Positions 37-13,406 of a DNA stretch of 64,000 nucleotides are shown one piece after another. The position numbers and the translations under genes were made by a program. The notes under the pieces are model-generated. The model searched no databases and was not told the origin of the DNA. It saw only the letters and a list, made by a program, of their open reading frames with translations. Position 1 is the first letter of the stretch. Every line of letters starts with the position of its first letter. The DNA is taken from positions 1 through 64,000 of the IMG/VR virus record IMGVR_UViG_3300032116_000065; one strand, 5' to 3'. Origin of the DNA: a virus.

Positions 37-113
37 TGGTGGGACCACTTGGACTTGAACCAAGAATCAACAAATTATGAGTTTGCTGCATTAACCAATT
101 ATGCTATAGTCCC
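37..113 (-). tRNA. tRNA with CAT anticodon (Ile2 or Met)
   Basis: Cloverleaf, anticodon loop CTCATAA, GTTCAAG T-loop, encoded CCA. Confidence 0.9.
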
Positions 114-769: not shown

Positions 770-1338
770 ACTTGTTTTATATTAAACGATATCGATATTC
801 GAGTCAAGTCGCCATCAGATGGAAGAACATCATGAGATGTCCATGAAGGGAATATCATCATCATTCCATTAACAGGTTTATAAAAAATAGCATGATGAAA
901 AAAGTTATTCTTTTCGGACAATTTTAATGGATAATGTTTTTGTAAAAACAAGTCATCAAAAAAGCGAATGTTTCCAGTGTTCTCGTCTGTTTGAATGTAT
1001 ATCACACCTGAGAATGCACTTGATGGGTGCACATGTTTCTCGTTGTAATCACCACGTTGATTAATGTTGATCCAAATATTGTCTAGTTCTAAGCGAAGTC
1101 CATCTTCTATTTCTTTTGCAATTTTATCACATCGATGTTCTATCTCAGACTTTATGGTGCCAAAACTTTTTAAGTCTTGCACGTTTAAATCTCGACTTTG
1201 CCATCCACCACGATTTGTAAAAATTCTATTTGGATAGTTGTTATTTTTTAATTCTAAACACTCGTTTGCAATATCACTACAATTGATGTTGAGATGATCG
1301 ATCCATATAGGTGTAAAAAACCAATTCTCTCTTTTCAT
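766..1338 (-). CDS. putative 2OG-Fe(II) oxygenase (TIGR02466-like); start moved to MKRENW
   Basis: WININ...HVH...SGVIY...IFPSW..HDV...RISISFN; GAGG upstream of ATG 1338; the longer ORF runs over tRNAs. Confidence 0.8.
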   Translation of the reverse strand: MKRENWFFTPIWIDHLNINCSDIANECLELKNNNYPNRIFTNRGGWQSRDLNVQDLKSFGTIKSEIEHRCDKIAKEIEDGLRLELDNIWININQRGDYNEKHVHPSSAFSGVIYIQTDENTGNIRFFDDLFLQKHYPLKLSEKNNFFHHAIFYKPVNGMMMIFPSWTSHDVLPSDGDLTRISISFNIKQV

Positions 1339-1350
1339 AAGCACCTCAAA

Positions 1351-1425
1351 TGGAGTTGCGGACTGGACTCGCACCAGCATAAAAGAGTTTTGCAGACTCT
1401 TGCATAACTTTTCTGCCACCGCAAC
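1351..1425 (-). tRNA. tRNA-Cys(GCA)
   Basis: Cloverleaf with CCA; T-loop reads TGCGAG instead of TTCGA. Confidence 0.88.
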
Positions 1426-1426
1426 G

Positions 1427-1502
1427 TGGTAGCAACGGTTGGACTCGAACCAACGATAAACTCCGTATGAAGGAGGTGCATTAGCCACTATGCTACGTTG
1501 CC
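1427..1502 (-). tRNA. tRNA-Met(CAT)
   Basis: Cloverleaf, anticodon loop TTCATAC, CCA. Confidence 0.88.
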
Positions 1503-1504
1503 AT

Positions 1505-1590
1505 TGGCGGAAGGCAGTGTAATCGAAACACATTCCCGAGGGAACCATCTGTTTAGCAAACAGCGACAAATCCTCTCTGCTTTACCTTCC
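1505..1590 (-). tRNA. tRNA-Ser(GCT)
   Basis: Long variable arm, GCT anticodon, G discriminator plus CCA. Confidence 0.85.
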
Positions 1591-1595
1591 TAAAC

Positions 1596-1672
1596 TGGCG
1601 ACTCGGATGGGACTTGAACCCACGACCTCATGCGTGACAGGCATGTGAACTAACCAACTGTTCTACCGAGCC
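1596..1672 (-). tRNA. tRNA-Asp(GTC)
   Basis: Canonical cloverleaf, CCA. Confidence 0.95.
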
Positions 1673-1677
1673 ATGAT

Positions 1678-1754
1678 TGGTGGGACAAGATGGATTCGAA
1701 CCATCGACCTCAGTCTTATCAGGACTGTGCGCTAACCAACTGTGCCATTGTCCC
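1678..1754 (-). tRNA. tRNA-Ile(GAT)
   Basis: Canonical cloverleaf, CCA. Confidence 0.95.
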
Positions 1755-1763
1755 GAAATAAAA

Positions 1764-1849
1764 TGGTGGGAAAGGAAGGAATCGAACCTACTCAGCCGAT
1801 GGCGCCAGATTTACAGTCTGGTGTGACTCTCCAACTTCACCGCTTGCCC
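1764..1849 (-). tRNA. tRNA-Tyr(GTA)
   Basis: Long variable arm, GTA anticodon, CCA; one acceptor-stem mismatch. Confidence 0.9.
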
Positions 1850-1858
1850 ACATAAACT

Positions 1859-1932
1859 TGGCTGAGGAGCATGGATTCGAACCACGATAAGCAGGATCAA
1901 AACCTGCTGTCCTGCCGTTAGACGACTCCTCA
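1859..1932 (-). tRNA. tRNA-Gln(TTG)
   Basis: Cloverleaf, CCA. Confidence 0.93.
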
Positions 1933-1940
1933 ATAAAAAG

Positions 1941-2272
1941 TGCAGGATGAGATAACTGGGTTTGCTCGTTCTAGGCATCCGATGGAGGCAACACATTACT
2001 GCTTGCCACATCCTGCGAAAAAGTTGCTTCTCCCTGCTGGTGGTCACTTTTCATCCACTTCACAACACAGGGAGATTCTCGTATTGCCAACGACCGTTCG
2101 GTTGGACGGCAGATTTCTCTGGGCATCATTGACTCATCTGCGTTGCCGCAGTAAGGTGTTGCCAAACCACCCATGCTTGTCACAGCATTTCTTTATCGTC
2201 TGGGTCAGACTAGCCACTAACAATGGCGCGACAAGATAGCCGAAGCGTACATTGCTGCAGAGGCTTCGGGCA
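1941..2272 (-). ncRNA. candidate structured ncRNA, part 3' of tRNA-Ala
   Basis: Consecutive stems CCGAAGC/GCTTCGG, CTTGTCGC/GTGACAAG, CTGCG-GCAA-CGCAG, CTCCCTG/CAGGGAG, GCAGGATG/CATCCTGC; no credible ORF. Confidence 0.6.
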
Positions 2273-2277
2273 TATTT

Positions 2278-2352
2278 TGGTGGAGGATGAGAGAATCGAA
2301 CTCTCAACTCTGCGATGCAAACGCAGCGTGTTCCCATTAGCACTAATCCCCC
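2278..2352 (-). tRNA. tRNA-Ala(TGC)
   Basis: Cloverleaf, G3:U70 pair, CCA. Confidence 0.93.
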
Positions 2353-2357
2353 AAATA

Positions 2358-2510
2358 AGGTGTGGGCTACCATTCAAGGTTTGTCTTAATCCTTACCCCC
2401 ACACAGCAAGGCTGCAATCCGTTCTGCCTCATAATTCAATCAGTGCTACCGAAACGGATAAGCCCTTACACTGATAGGATGAACCCGACAGATGCATCTG
2501 CAGGTCACCA
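2358..2510 (-). ncRNA. candidate structured ncRNA, part 5' of tRNA-Ala
   Basis: Stems ATCAGTGT/GCACTGAT and GTGTGGG/CCCACAC; loop-loop complement ATCCGTT/AACGGAT. Confidence 0.55.
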
Positions 2511-2513
2511 AGA

Positions 2514-2588
2514 TGGCTGGCGTGGTAGGGATCGAACCTACGACAGAGTGATTAACAGTCACTTGATCTACCGCTGATCTACACGCCA
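2514..2588 (-). tRNA. tRNA-Asn(GTT)
   Basis: Cloverleaf, CCA. Confidence 0.95.
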
Positions 2589-2598
2589 AAAACTAAAC

Positions 2599-2672
2599 TG
2601 GCTTCCCGATACGGACTCGAACCGCAACCAAGAGTTTTGGAGACTCGTATGCTTCCATTACACCATCGGGAA
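2599..2672 (-). tRNA. tRNA-Trp(CCA)
   Basis: Cloverleaf, CCA. Confidence 0.92.
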
Positions 2673-2674
2673 AT

Positions 2675-2750
2675 TGGTGGGTCTAGCAGGACTCGAACCT
2701 GCATCAAACTGGTTAAGAGCCAGATATAATCACCGTTATACGATAGACCC
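2675..2750 (-). tRNA. tRNA-Lys(CTT)
   Basis: Cloverleaf, CCA. Confidence 0.92.
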
Positions 2751-2757
2751 AAACGTA

Positions 2758-2831
2758 TGGTAGGGCTGGAGGGTAACGCTCCCTCTTTTACGGATTAAAA
2801 GTCCGTTACATCACTTTAATGTTTCAACCCC
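2758..2831 (-). tRNA. atypical tRNA-Lys(TTT)
   Basis: Acceptor and anticodon stems and CCA intact; T-loop AGCGTTA and A8 are non-canonical. Confidence 0.8.
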
Positions 2832-2853
2832 AAAAAATCATAACAAAGTAATC

Positions 2854-2928
2854 TGGTGAACCCAAGGGAATTCGAATCCCTATTCCATCCGTGAAAGGGA
2901 TGTGTCCTAACCGTTAGACGATGGGTCC
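2854..2928 (-). tRNA. tRNA-Glu(TTC)
   Basis: Cloverleaf, CCA. Confidence 0.93.
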
Positions 2929-2934
2929 AAAAAT

Positions 2935-3009
2935 TGGTGCCTTCAGAGAGATTTGAACTCCCAACCTACTGATTACAAATCAGTTGCACTACCGTTGTGC
3001 TATGAAGGC
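2935..3009 (-). tRNA. tRNA-Thr(TGT)
   Basis: Cloverleaf, CCA. Confidence 0.95.
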
Positions 3010-3098
3010 AGAATTGATACCTGCCCCAACTCCCGCAGAATATCGTGGTCTCCCATCTCTGAATAGAGAATCAAAACCTTACCCAAGAATCATTTCAA

Positions 3099-3110
3099 TT
3101 TTAAACAGCA
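3099..3110 (-). promoter_or_regulatory. boxA-like antitermination site TGCTGTTTAAAA in the tRNA-operon leader
   Basis: 10/12 match to rrn boxA TGCTCTTTAACA, about 30 nt after the predicted start. Confidence 0.5.
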
Positions 3111-3145
3111 AGAGCAATCGCGAAGGACGCTCAACTCATACAATC

Positions 3146-3205
3146 ATTATACCGTATGAGGTCTTACAAGTAAACTAAAAAAACTCTATAAAAATCAATA
3201 ACTTA
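3146..3205 (-). promoter_or_regulatory. tRNA-operon promoter (TTTACT-N17-TATAAT) with upstream IHF site
   Basis: T4-early-like GTTTAC -35, perfect -10; AATCAATAACTTA at 3193-3205 matches WATCAANNNNTTR, with an A-tract. Confidence 0.75.
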
Positions 3206-3317
3206 GAAAAAGGTCGCAGTTTTCGATGCAGGGAGGGAAACAACTAGTAGCATCTTGGGACTTTGTCCTACCAAAAAAGTTTTGGGCGTCGCGAATCACG
3301 CAGAAAATTGTCAGTCT

Positions 3318-3346
3318 AGTATATAGTACAATTTCAAAAAAATCAA
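3318..3346 (-). promoter_or_regulatory. sigma70-type promoter TTGATT-N17-TATACT
   Basis: Hexamers and 17-nt spacing. Confidence 0.5.
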
Positions 3347-3492
3347 GTTTCTCGAACTGCTTTCAGCAAAATCCAAACGTAAAAAAGAACAATCGCAGTT
3401 GAGATCCAGCCCCAAACAGTTCCTCTGTTTACAACAGCAAAGTAAATGTTTAGAGCCAAAACTAACAAGTCAATCAATGGTGCATACTTCAT
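3343..3492 (-). CDS. small two-TM membrane protein (49 aa, not in ORF track)
   Basis: MKYAPLIDLLVLALNIYFAVVNRGTVWGWISTAIVLFYVWILLKAVRET; ATGA-coupled to the upstream gene. Confidence 0.6.
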   Translation of the reverse strand: MKYAPLIDLLVLALNIYFAVVNRGTVWGWISTAIVLFYVWILLKAVRET

Positions 3493-8318: not shown

Positions 8319-8852
8319 TTACTTACTCAAACGCTCCTCTTTTAGTTTATTACAAAAGATCTTGTACAGACCCAACTCTCTTCCATATGCTTCAATTTCC
8401 CACGGACTGTCGAAATACTTTTCTTCGTCTGTATAATGTGAAGCATCAAAGACCAAACCTTTGTAGCGAACATCGCCGCTCTTGTAGTCGAATAATTCAT
8501 TATTGAGATATTGTTTGATGTGAGTCAATTCATGACCAAGATCAATGAGTAACTGTTTGAGACGTGTTTGTGGCTTCTTGCCGAGTTTGCTGATGCGCTT
8601 ATAGTTTAAAACAACAGTGAACTTCTTGTTGCCTTCTTCATCAAGACCGTCATAGGTGCACCATGCTTTGTACTTCTTCAAGTCCAACAAATCAGCGGCA
8701 TCTCGAATTTCATCCTCACCAAGAACCTTGATGGTGATTTTCGACTTTCGCTGAACGCATGGTCGCACTAGACGATTCAAGACGAATCTTGAATACTTCC
8801 GAATCATGGCTGAATCGGAACGACGGAGATAATTGCTCGTAATTGCAATCAT
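8319..8852 (-). CDS. putative HExxH zinc metallopeptidase-like protein
   Basis: LGHELTHIKQY...PWEIEAY. Confidence 0.75.
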   Translation of the reverse strand: MIAITSNYLRRSDSAMIRKYSRFVLNRLVRPCVQRKSKITIKVLGEDEIRDAADLLDLKKYKAWCTYDGLDEEGNKKFTVVLNYKRISKLGKKPQTRLKQLLIDLGHELTHIKQYLNNELFDYKSGDVRYKGLVFDASHYTDEEKYFDSPWEIEAYGRELGLYKIFCNKLKEERLSK

Positions 8853-13289: not shown

Positions 13290-13406
13290 CGGTTCATCTA
13301 TCGTGATACAGTGCGCACTGTGTCCTAGATTCCTCTTTTACAAAAGCAGCCATCGCTGTGCGACAAACCTTACACCGAAAGGTAGGGCGGCTGGTTCGTT
13401 ATTTAG
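13290..13406 (-). ncRNA. candidate structured RNA/leader after a late-type promoter (CTAAATA)
   Basis: Three-way junction closed by CAGCC/GGCTG, plus a long hairpin at 13296-13330. Confidence 0.45.

What the first reader, a model, noticed from the sequence alone, without database searches (positions are those of the whole stretch)
1941..2510. About 570-nt ornate structured RNA candidate with tRNA-Ala embedded in it
Seen: elsewhere in the array tRNAs are 1-22 nt apart, but tRNA-Ala is flanked by about 160 and 345 nt of GC-richer sequence with no credible ORF. This sequence forms at least nine stems, two GCAA tetraloops, a multi-way junction (CTTGTCGC/GTGACAAG) and loop-loop complements (ATCCGTT/AACGGAT; ACCCA/TGGGT). 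Known: GOLLD and ROOL are large phage RNAs found near tRNA genes, and GOLLD can contain a tRNA. Inference: this is a divergent member of those classes, a new class, or several smaller RNAs cut from the tRNA transcript. I cannot assign a family by eye.
Basis: partly seen in the sequence, partly recalled or inferred. Interest (0 to 1): 0.75.

Follow-up and report, generated by a model that had tools for sequence, protein, structure and literature searches.

The report
Folded RNA genes among phage tRNAs
The two long gaps beside tRNA-Ala in this uncultured freshwater cyanophage-like genome are not one giant RNA: they hold three or four separate, conserved, folded small-RNA units matching no Rfam family, sitting in the tRNA operon much as phage T4's still-unexplained stable RNAs do.

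Summary
The gaps are real: 345 and 161 nt on either side of tRNA-Ala, minus strand. The "one 570-nt RNA" reading is not supported. Relatives gain and lose the pieces independently, at exact boundaries.

- **modD (2513..2353):** about 130-210 nt with two pseudoknots, always just 3' of tRNA-Asn. 14 of 30 pairs covary.
- **modA (2277..2233):** an optional hairpin.
- **modB (2232..2022):** a discrete 211-nt unit found in 26 loci. These include non-T4-like phages, and in one phage group (L020/L021/L034) the fetched loci hold no tRNA. In the helices shared by all forms, 15 of 32 pairs covary. The core is nearly invariant and the central domain is variable.
- **modC (2021..1933):** a tRNA-sized unit with an acceptor-like stem.

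None of the modules matches Rfam, including GOLLD, ROOL, tRNA, tmRNA, RNase P and the ribozyme families. BLASTN of modB and modD forms against GenBank phages found nothing, and T4 RNAC/RNAD show no similarity. No ORF is conserved.

Its CTTGTCGC/GTGACAAG junction is refuted.

Best reading: these are new families of stable structured RNAs, co-transcribed with the tRNAs and released by tRNA-processing enzymes. Their function is unknown. RNA-library contigs cover them, but RNA ends are not shown.

Earlier notes in this scan flag modD look-alikes (shared short words) on other phage DNA (e1-6068574, e1-5827845).

The parts
2353..2513 (-). modD: pseudoknotted RNA unit between tRNA-Asn and tRNA-Ala. 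It has a variable 5' hairpin (about 2477-2509). Helix a is 2468-2473 with 2441-2446. Pseudoknot helix b is 2454-2459 with 2417-2422. Helix c is 2408-2411 with 2391-2394. Pseudoknot helix d is 2398-2404 with 2360-2366.
   Evidence: Homologues at 75-90% identity always lie just 3' of tRNA-Asn. With my structure, 96.2% of cells pair and 14 of 30 pairs change on both sides, against 6.5+-1.5 in shuffles and 0-4 in slid controls. No Rfam hit. No BLASTN hit in GenBank phages.
2278..2352 (-). tRNA-Ala(UGC): an ordinary tRNA with an encoded CCA, not a part of the flanking RNAs.
   Evidence: ARAGORN and Rfam tRNA, 54.6 bits. In relatives it stands with or without modD and modA.
2233..2277 (-). modA: optional 5' hairpin with a GCAA tetraloop (stem-loop at 2239-2271) plus the linker to modB.
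   Evidence: It is absent in the L016 type, L042, L048 and L020, and present 5' of the divergent modB copies. The stem changes in a compensating way (GCCCGAAGC/GCUUCGGC, GCCCGACAC/GUGUCGGC, GCCCCAAGC/GCUUGGGC), and some copies carry insertions at the tip.
2022..2232 (-). modB: a discrete 211-nt structured RNA.
- 5' domain: H1 2213-2227, H2 2198-2210, linker GAUAAAGAA 2189-2197, H3 2173-2188.
- Variable central domain: 2094-2172 (H4, H5 with GCAA, two small hairpins).
- Hairpin CGU[UGGCAAU]ACG: 2080-2092.
- Long hairpin H7: 2029-2075, with a tip of variable length.
- Tail: 2022-2028.
   Evidence: - 22 loci at 86-100% identity share exactly these boundaries.
- The covariance model finds four divergent copies at 45-60 bits.
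- In the helices shared by all forms, 99.7% of cells pair and 15 of 32 pairs change on both sides, against 5.9+-1.5 in shuffles and 1-3 in slid controls.
- One U-A pair is co-inserted in a small hairpin.
- Indels of 2, 17 and 19 nt occur, and several copies have stops in all frames.
- No Rfam hit. One copy per genome.
1933..2021 (-). modC: a tRNA-sized unit. It has a 7-bp acceptor-like terminal stem (2010-2016 with 1942-1948), a 5' hairpin (1987-2007) and a 3' hairpin (1954-1972). It has no T-loop, no CCA and no recognisable anticodon arm.
   Evidence: It fills the whole tRNA-Val to tRNA-Gln gap in L016, L017, L031, L033, L036, L045 and L046, and is absent in L018 and L019. Three compensatory pair changes are seen. 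No tRNA-model hit at E<=10.
3146..3174 (-). Sigma-70-like promoter match upstream of the first tRNA of the array (tRNA-Thr, 3009..2935).
   Evidence: TTTACT-17-TATAAT, 10 of 12 matches. No promoter-like or terminator-like site lies on the minus strand between 3009 and 1351. This is a consensus match only.
2514..2588 (-). tRNA-Asn(GUU): the upstream neighbour of modD in every locus seen.
1859..1932 (-). tRNA-Gln(UUG): the downstream neighbour of modC. Its RNase P site would set the 3' end of the preceding unit.
   Evidence: the processing step is an inference

Best explanation
The two long gaps are occupied by separate small-RNA units that sit in the tRNA operon like extra genes. In order they are tRNA-Asn, modD, tRNA-Ala, modA+modB, modC and tRNA-Gln.

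Shown:
- modB and modD are conserved RNA families with covarying helices, two of them pseudoknots in modD.
- Each has exact boundaries that abut tRNA ends.
- Each is gained or lost independently of the other.
- Each also occurs in phages unrelated to this one.

Inferred:
- The whole array is transcribed from the promoter-like site at about 3146-3174.
- RNase P, cutting at the 5' end of the next tRNA, makes each unit's 3' end. Maturation of the upstream tRNA's 3' end frees its 5' end.
- The compact folds then persist as stable trans-acting RNAs, as RNAC and RNAD do in T4.
- The near-invariant loops and linkers of modB serve as a recognition surface for a conserved host or phage partner during infection. 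These include three GGCAA-bearing hairpin loops, the GAUnAGAA linker and the internal loop of the long hairpin. The partner is unknown.
For: - **Modularity:**. In the L016 type, modB fills the tRNA-Ala to tRNA-Val gap to the base, with 2 nt after the CCA and 0 nt before G1 of tRNA-Val.
- **Structure of modB:** (15 of 32 pairs with double changes, 99.7% of cells paired).
- **Structure of modD:** (14 of 30 pairs).
- **modB across phage types:** T4-like arrays; a 52% GC phage with a Sak-like annealing protein, where modB sits between small ORFs directly after a stop codon; and 52-55% GC array-bearing contigs.
- **Sequence constraint:** blocks of more than 40 nt are identical between phages of 38% and 52% GC, while neighbouring stems covary.
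- **Transcription unit:** no internal promoter or terminator match on the minus strand.
- **RNA libraries:** contigs from four metatranscriptome studies cover modB joined to tRNA-Ala, and modD.
- **Not coding:**
- **Precedent:** T4 annotates rnaC and rnaD at the end of its tRNA cluster. GOLLD and ROOL lie near phage tRNA islands (PMC12286853).
Against: - No RNA ends, strand or abundance are shown. Only assembled contigs could be laid, and DNA carry-over in the RNA libraries cannot be excluded.
- In the fetched loci of the L020-type phage no tRNA flanks modB, so tRNA-enzyme excision cannot be the general release route.
- The central part of modB is invariant within the long form, so its pairing is not established. 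One helix I first drew (GUCAAUG/CGUUGGC) is probably wrong.
- No partner protein was found.
- The covariation rests on few independent lineages: about 3 long-form and 2-3 short-form for modB.
Confidence: 0.6

Rival explanations
1. The units are cis-acting punctuation. They would be structured spacers that guide or insulate folding and cutting of the long tRNA precursor, or protect its fragments from exonucleases, with no trans-acting role.
For: They always abut tRNA ends. modD always follows tRNA-Asn, and long-form modB always follows tRNA-Ala. In L020, modB sits between ORFs of one operon, where a stabiliser or processing site would make sense.
Against: Most tRNAs in the same arrays are only 1-10 nt apart and need no such spacer. 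Closely related arrays do without modD, modC or modA. Invariant blocks of more than 40 nt and a 211-nt multi-hairpin fold are far more than punctuation would need.
Confidence: 0.17
2. One or more units are self-cleaving ribozymes that trim the 3' trailer of the upstream tRNA, like the HDV-like theta ribozymes of gut phages, or belong to a new ribozyme class.
For: The units start within 0-2 nt of a tRNA CCA. modD has two pseudoknots and modB has an invariant core. Theta ribozymes are described at phage tRNA 3' ends (PMC10879173).
Against: No hit to any Rfam ribozyme family at E<=10 inside the units. The 5' end of modD, where an HDV-type P1 must start, is its most variable part. The modD strand order is two separate H-type pseudoknots with no P3 hairpin between them. 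The hammerhead-like CAGAUGAG...GAAA in modB lacks the conserved U. In L020, modB has no upstream tRNA.
Confidence: 0.08
3. The units are selfish or decaying cassettes. They would be relics of tRNAs or small mobile elements that hop between phage tRNA arrays, kept by drift or recent transfer and not by function.
For: Cassette-like presence and absence at exact boundaries. modB is 86% identical between unrelated phages, which suggests horizontal transfer. modC keeps an acceptor-like stem.
Against: Compensatory changes keep helices paired in all families. The divergent modB copies keep the same helices and loop sequences despite a replaced central domain. No repeats, target duplications or second copies were seen in the genome. 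There is no tRNA-model signal.
Confidence: 0.1
4. The whole 570 nt is one large ornate RNA of the GOLLD/ROOL kind, with tRNA-Ala in its linker.
For: GOLLD has a variable 5' part and a conserved 3' part, and sometimes carries tRNAs in its linker (PMC12286853). Here a more variable modD, tRNA-Ala and a highly conserved modB lie in that order.
Against: No GOLLD or ROOL match at E<=10. modB occurs without modD and modD without modB, including in a complete genome. In L065 they are separated by three tRNAs. No covarying pairing links the two sides.
Confidence: 0.03
5. The gap encodes a small protein, for example the 99-aa plus-strand ORF at 1940-2239, whose frame has no stop across modB in many copies.
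For: One antisense frame has no stop across modB in 12 of 20 copies.
Against: That frame has stops in L036, L037, L042, L048, L057 and L069. Indels of 2, 17 and 19 nt occur. The substitutions are paired stem changes, not synonymous ones. No Pfam or PHROGs match.
Confidence: 0.02

Closest known systems
Phage T4 small stable RNAs RNAC (species 1, 139 nt) and RNAD (species 2, 119 nt)
   Same: They are non-tRNA RNA genes inside the tRNA cluster of a T4-type phage, on the same strand and in the same transcription unit as the tRNAs, 120-210 nt long and of unknown function (annotation seen).
   Different: No sequence similarity. RNAC ends in a tRNA-like T-arm and acceptor, which modB and modD lack. 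modB also occurs outside tRNA clusters and in non-T4-like phages.
GOLLD and ROOL RNAs
   Same: They are phage-borne, intricately folded RNAs found at tRNA islands. They first came from lake, marine and rumen metagenomes, and their function is unknown (PMC12286853).
   Different: GOLLD and ROOL are about 580 to over 800 nt single units. Here the units are 80-270 nt and independent. No match to their Rfam models. Multimer formation is untested.
HDV-like theta ribozymes of gut Caudoviricetes (PMC10879173)
   Same: Structured, pseudoknotted RNA placed directly after a phage tRNA 3' end.
   Different: Theta ribozymes are minimal nested double pseudoknots that begin at the cleavage site. modD has two side-by-side H-type pseudoknots behind a variable 5' hairpin. 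modB shows no established pseudoknot. No ribozyme family hit.
Earlier scan notes on knotted RNAs in tRNA operons of large water phages (e1-6068574, e1-5827845)
   Same: They share short words with modD (6 and 18 of 32 words) and describe a conserved, doubly pseudoknotted RNA fused to a tRNA CCA end with no Rfam match.
   Different: Those notes concern other genomes, one of them after tRNA-Gln. They are unchecked AI notes, and I did not align their sequences. No look-alike of modB was on record.

Membership tests
GOLLD / ROOL (Rfam models) | Match to the family covariance model | tested here: not met
   cmscan of 1300-3400 on both strands lists no GOLLD or ROOL hit, either at gathering score or at E<=10. 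None appeared among the listed matches in 10 related loci at gathering score either.
GOLLD / ROOL (Rfam models) | One large unit of about 580 to over 800 nt whose domains always travel together | tested here: not met
   The modules are gained and lost independently.
GOLLD / ROOL (Rfam models) | Phage-borne, at tRNA islands | tested here: met
tRNA / tRNA-like (Rfam tRNA model, ARAGORN) | Cloverleaf with a T-loop and an anticodon arm | tested here: not met
   No tRNA hit at E<=10 inside 1933-2277 or 2353-2513. modC has only the acceptor-like stem.
HDV-like / theta ribozymes | Nested double pseudoknot (P1-P2-P3-P1'-P4-P2') starting at the cleavage site just after the tRNA | tested here: not met
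   No HDV-family hit. The modD helices are ordered a-b-a'-b' and c-d-c'-(e)-d', with no P3 hairpin, and the 5' end is variable. This was judged by inspection, not with a dedicated descriptor.
HDV-like / theta ribozymes | Self-cleavage | not testable with these tools
   Needs an in vitro transcription and cleavage assay.
T4 RNAC / RNAD | Sequence homology to T4 rnaC or rnaD | tested here: not met
   blastn-short gives only 7-11-nt chance matches.
T4 RNAC / RNAD | Non-tRNA stable RNA gene within the phage tRNA transcription unit | tested here: inconclusive
   Position and strand fit. Stability and ends are not shown.
tmRNA, RNase P RNA, 6S, SRP, group I intron, T-box and known riboswitches | Match to the family model | tested here: not met
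   ARAGORN finds no tmRNA. No Rfam family reaches E<=10 inside the units.

The most novel reading that the evidence does not exclude
modB is a new class of functional RNA machine spread horizontally among unrelated phages of freshwater picocyanobacteria. It would be either a ribozyme, an RNA that assembles into a higher-order particle as ROOL and GOLLD do, or a decoy that disarms a host RNA-targeting defence. Its near-invariant core would be the active or recognition site. modD would be a second, doubly pseudoknotted class from the same toolkit.
Probability: 0.12. Interest if true: 0.85.

Novelty: new variant of a known kind. Interest (0 to 1): 0.6.

Why it matters
Large phages carry tRNA arrays whose "spacers" are usually ignored. 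Here at least two spacers hold RNA families with comparative support as good as that of many curated Rfam families. One of them (modB) has blocks of more than 40 nt that stay identical between phages of very different base composition and gene content, a pattern that points to direct sequence recognition or catalysis. The function of the T4 stable RNAs has been open for about 50 years (my own knowledge), and GOLLD and ROOL still have no known role. A compact 180-270-nt family that occurs both inside and outside tRNA arrays is an easier object for biochemistry and structure work. It could show what phages gain from expressing folded RNAs together with their tRNAs.

Tried and rejected
- **Rfam.** The gathering-score and E<=10 scans found only tRNAs in the region, plus chance hits overlapping tRNAs.
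- **GenBank phages.** BLASTN with the window region, a short-form modB, the L065-type modB and a long-form modD found only tRNA-Ala or nothing.
- **Nearest cultured relative.** Cyanophage S-RIM32 (62% identity in a virion protein) has no modB by the covariance model.
- **GTDB species genomes.** A 20-mer scan gave one chance hit in a Coprococcus MAG.
- **18-mer GACCCAGACGATAAAGAA.** It returned nine unrelated coding hits, showing that pattern hits must be checked. Two of the hits for the 3' pattern were also chance.
- **T4 rnaC and rnaD.** No similarity.
- **Partner protein.** The ORFs flanking modB in L020 have no homologue in the window's genome.
- **L054 spacer.** The 393-nt spacer after tRNA-Ala is not a hidden modB.
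- **Metatranscriptomes.** Only contigs could be laid, so no ends, strand or level are available.
- **Structures I drew and dropped.**
  - The enclosing helix GUCAAUG/CGUUGGC. The short forms lack the 5' strand, and the local hairpin CGU[UGGCAAU]ACG covaries instead.
  - The alternative alifold pairing UUGGC/GUCAA, broken by the U-to-C change in L020.
- **Resemblances by eye with no supporting test.**
  - A hammerhead-like CAGAUGAG...GAAA, which lacks the conserved U.
  - A hairpin-ribozyme-like CCAGAGAAA.
  - A T-box-like GGGUGGU.
  - An anti-Shine-Dalgarno-like CACCUCC, present in L020 only.
  - A kink-turn at the tip of the long hairpin, not conserved.
  - A P22 boxB-like loop GUGACA, not kept in the short forms.
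- **Coding potential.** The ORFs were rejected.

Full report
**What is at the coordinates.** The window is an IMG/VR viral contig of 101 kb, about 60% complete. A virion protein is 62% identical to that of cyanophage S-RIM32, and most other hits are Synechococcus myoviruses. It is therefore an uncultured T4-like cyanophage relative. DNA runs holding the stretch are labelled mostly lake or freshwater.

A tRNA array runs on the minus strand from 3009 to 1351, with one more tRNA at 113..37. Rfam adds a tRNA at 2761-2831. tRNA-Ala(UGC) at 2278-2352 has 161 nt on its 5' side (2513..2353) and 345 nt on its 3' side (2277..1933). Most other gaps are 1-10 nt.

A promoter-like site lies upstream of the array at 3174..3146. 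No promoter-like or terminator-like site lies on that strand inside the array. Folding either gap alone is not convincing, with z = -2.07 and -0.93. No Rfam family matches either gap, even at E<=10.

**The region is modular.** A 35-mer from the long gap found four close relatives. Aligning them shows blocks that come and go at exact boundaries. I call the blocks modD, modA, modB and modC.

| Unit | Window (minus strand) | Present | Absent |
|---|---|---|---|
| modD | 2513..2353 | many arrays | L017, L019 and others |
| modA | 2277..2233 | most long-form arrays | L016 type |
| modB | 2232..2022 | all | none |
| modC | 2021..1933 | many arrays | L018, L019 |

A tRNA-Val sits between modB and modC in L016, L017 and L018 but not in the window. 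This alone rules out a single 570-nt RNA with an embedded tRNA.

**modB.** Further pattern scans of viral and metagenome contigs brought the set to 22 loci at 86-100% identity, 17 of them distinct, always with the same ends.
- In T4-like arrays, modB follows tRNA-Ala.
- In the L016 type it fills the tRNA-Ala to tRNA-Val gap to the base.
- In L020, L021 and L034 it lies in a quite different phage: 52% GC, a Sak-like annealing protein and no tRNA in the locus. There it starts right after a stop codon, between small same-strand ORFs.

A covariance model built from the 17 sequences then found four much more divergent copies, at 45-60 bits and E from 1e-11 to 1e-16. They lie in L057, L059, L065 and L069. 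These copies keep several features:
- three 5' hairpins and the linker GAUnAGAA;
- the hairpin CGY[UGGCAAU]RCG;
- the long 3' hairpin with its internal loop;
- the tail GAAGCA.

They replace the central ~80 nt (H4 to H6b) with a shorter, different segment.

On the model-based alignment, the helices shared by all forms pair in 99.7% of cells. 15 of 32 pairs change on both sides, against 5.9+-1.5 in shuffles and 1-3 in slid controls. That alignment is fitted to the model, so it leans towards the structure. The MAFFT alignment of the long forms alone gives 10 such pairs against 2.0+-1.1.

Other signs of RNA-level selection:
- A small hairpin gains one U-A pair by co-insertion.
- The tip of the long hairpin varies by +17 to +57 nt.
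- Blocks of more than 40 nt stay identical between phages of 38% and 52% GC while neighbouring stems covary.

The pairing of the central domain of the long form cannot be settled, because it does not vary. One enclosing helix I first drew is probably wrong. No frame is open in all copies, and the ORFs hit nothing. There is one copy per genome.

**modA.** The 45-nt GCAA hairpin also precedes the divergent modB copies, with compensating stem changes and tip insertions. It is best read as an optional 5' arm of the modB unit.

**modD.** The spacers between tRNA-Asn and tRNA-Ala form a second family, in short (about 160 nt) and long (about 210 nt) forms at 75-90% identity. A motif scan added L054, L055, L057, L059, L064 and the 52% GC contig L065, always just 3' of tRNA-Asn.

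The shared core has two hairpins whose loops pair with downstream segments, which makes two H-type pseudoknots. With that structure, 96.2% of cells pair and 14 of 30 pairs change on both sides, against 6.5+-1.5 in shuffles and 0-4 in slid controls.

modD and modB are independent of each other. The complete 188-kb genome behind L054 has modD and no modB, and several arrays have modB without modD.

**modC.** This 89-nt unit fills the whole tRNA-Val to tRNA-Gln gap in many relatives. It has a 7-bp acceptor-like stem and two hairpins, with three compensatory changes. It gives no tRNA-model signal.

**Expression.** Six metatranscriptome runs from six studies hold 28-38% of the sampled words. Laid contigs from four of them cover modB joined to modA and tRNA-Ala, and also modD. 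Some contigs carry the same module deletions seen in DNA relatives. Contigs show no ends, strand or level, and DNA carry-over is possible, so this is only a weak hint of transcription.

**Comparison with known RNAs.**
- T4 annotates two stable RNAs at the end of its tRNA cluster. They share context with these units but no sequence.
- GOLLD and ROOL share the phage tRNA-island niche, but not the model match, the size or the unity of the RNA.
- Theta ribozymes share the position after a tRNA, but not the fold order.
- Earlier notes of this scan flag modD look-alikes by shared short words in other water-phage tRNA operons, and similar unnamed pseudoknotted RNAs in other phage arrays. Those are unchecked leads. 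They agree that such units recur.

**Verdict.** The headline interpretation is wrong in form, because this is not one RNA and not GOLLD or ROOL. Its fallback options are right: several smaller RNAs, of new classes.

The most likely mechanism is co-transcription with the tRNAs, release by tRNA-processing enzymes, and action as stable folded RNAs that present invariant loops to an unknown partner. Only the conservation, structure, modularity and distribution are shown. Processing, stability and function are inferred.

Noticed in passing
window 1503-1595 (minus strand): A 93-nt gap between tRNA-Asp and tRNA-Met holds a tRNA-like unit. It has a 7-bp acceptor-type stem, a discriminator G plus CCA, and a T-arm with loop UUCGAUU. 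Both ARAGORN and the Rfam tRNA model miss it. It recurs at 78-93% identity in L017, L039 and L018, next to different tRNAs.
   Followed up: partly
window 2761-2831 (minus strand): A tRNA found only by Rfam (41.9 bits) and not by ARAGORN. By eye it has a UUU anticodon with an unusual D-arm and T-loop. It is conserved in L019, L039, L032, L046 and L040.
   Followed up: partly
window 13348-13392; L054 8322-8366; L055 3935-3979: The Rfam COG2908 RNA motif scores 71-73 bits. In the relatives L054 and L055 it lies inside the tRNA array, between tRNA-Thr and tRNA-Met. A catalogued structured motif is therefore also an array resident in this phage group.
   Followed up: no
L018 9315-9428 and L057 about 8394-8510: Another conserved unit of about 113 nt sits between tRNA-Ala and modA in two relatives, with apparent compensating changes. 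It is absent from the window.
   Followed up: no
L057 about 8640-8760: A tRNA-like sequence with a canonical T-arm (GUGGUUCGAUUCCAC) and an acceptor stem, but with a large internal insertion. No tool annotated it.
   Followed up: no
L065 950-1058 and L069 12920-13000: In the 52-55% GC array-bearing contigs, modB is followed at once by a long near-perfect hairpin (arms beginning UAUAUUGAAGCAC). This is a possible RNase III site or terminator.
   Followed up: no
L054 5191-5583: The complete 188-kb relative has a 393-nt gap after tRNA-Ala, where modB would be. The gap is not modB by the covariance model, so it presumably holds yet another unit.
   Followed up: partly
window 2022-2232 (plus strand frame): One antisense frame across modB has no stop in 12 of 20 copies, including some with insertions. 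This is probably a composition effect, since six copies have stops in all frames.
   Followed up: yes
L042 128-959, L043 243-972, L046 5327-5756: In some relatives the tRNA-Asn to tRNA-Ala gap is 430-830 nt. modD takes about the first 180-210 nt, followed by extra sequence. Part of the L042 gap resembles the window's 114-1350 gene region at 70% identity.
   Followed up: no
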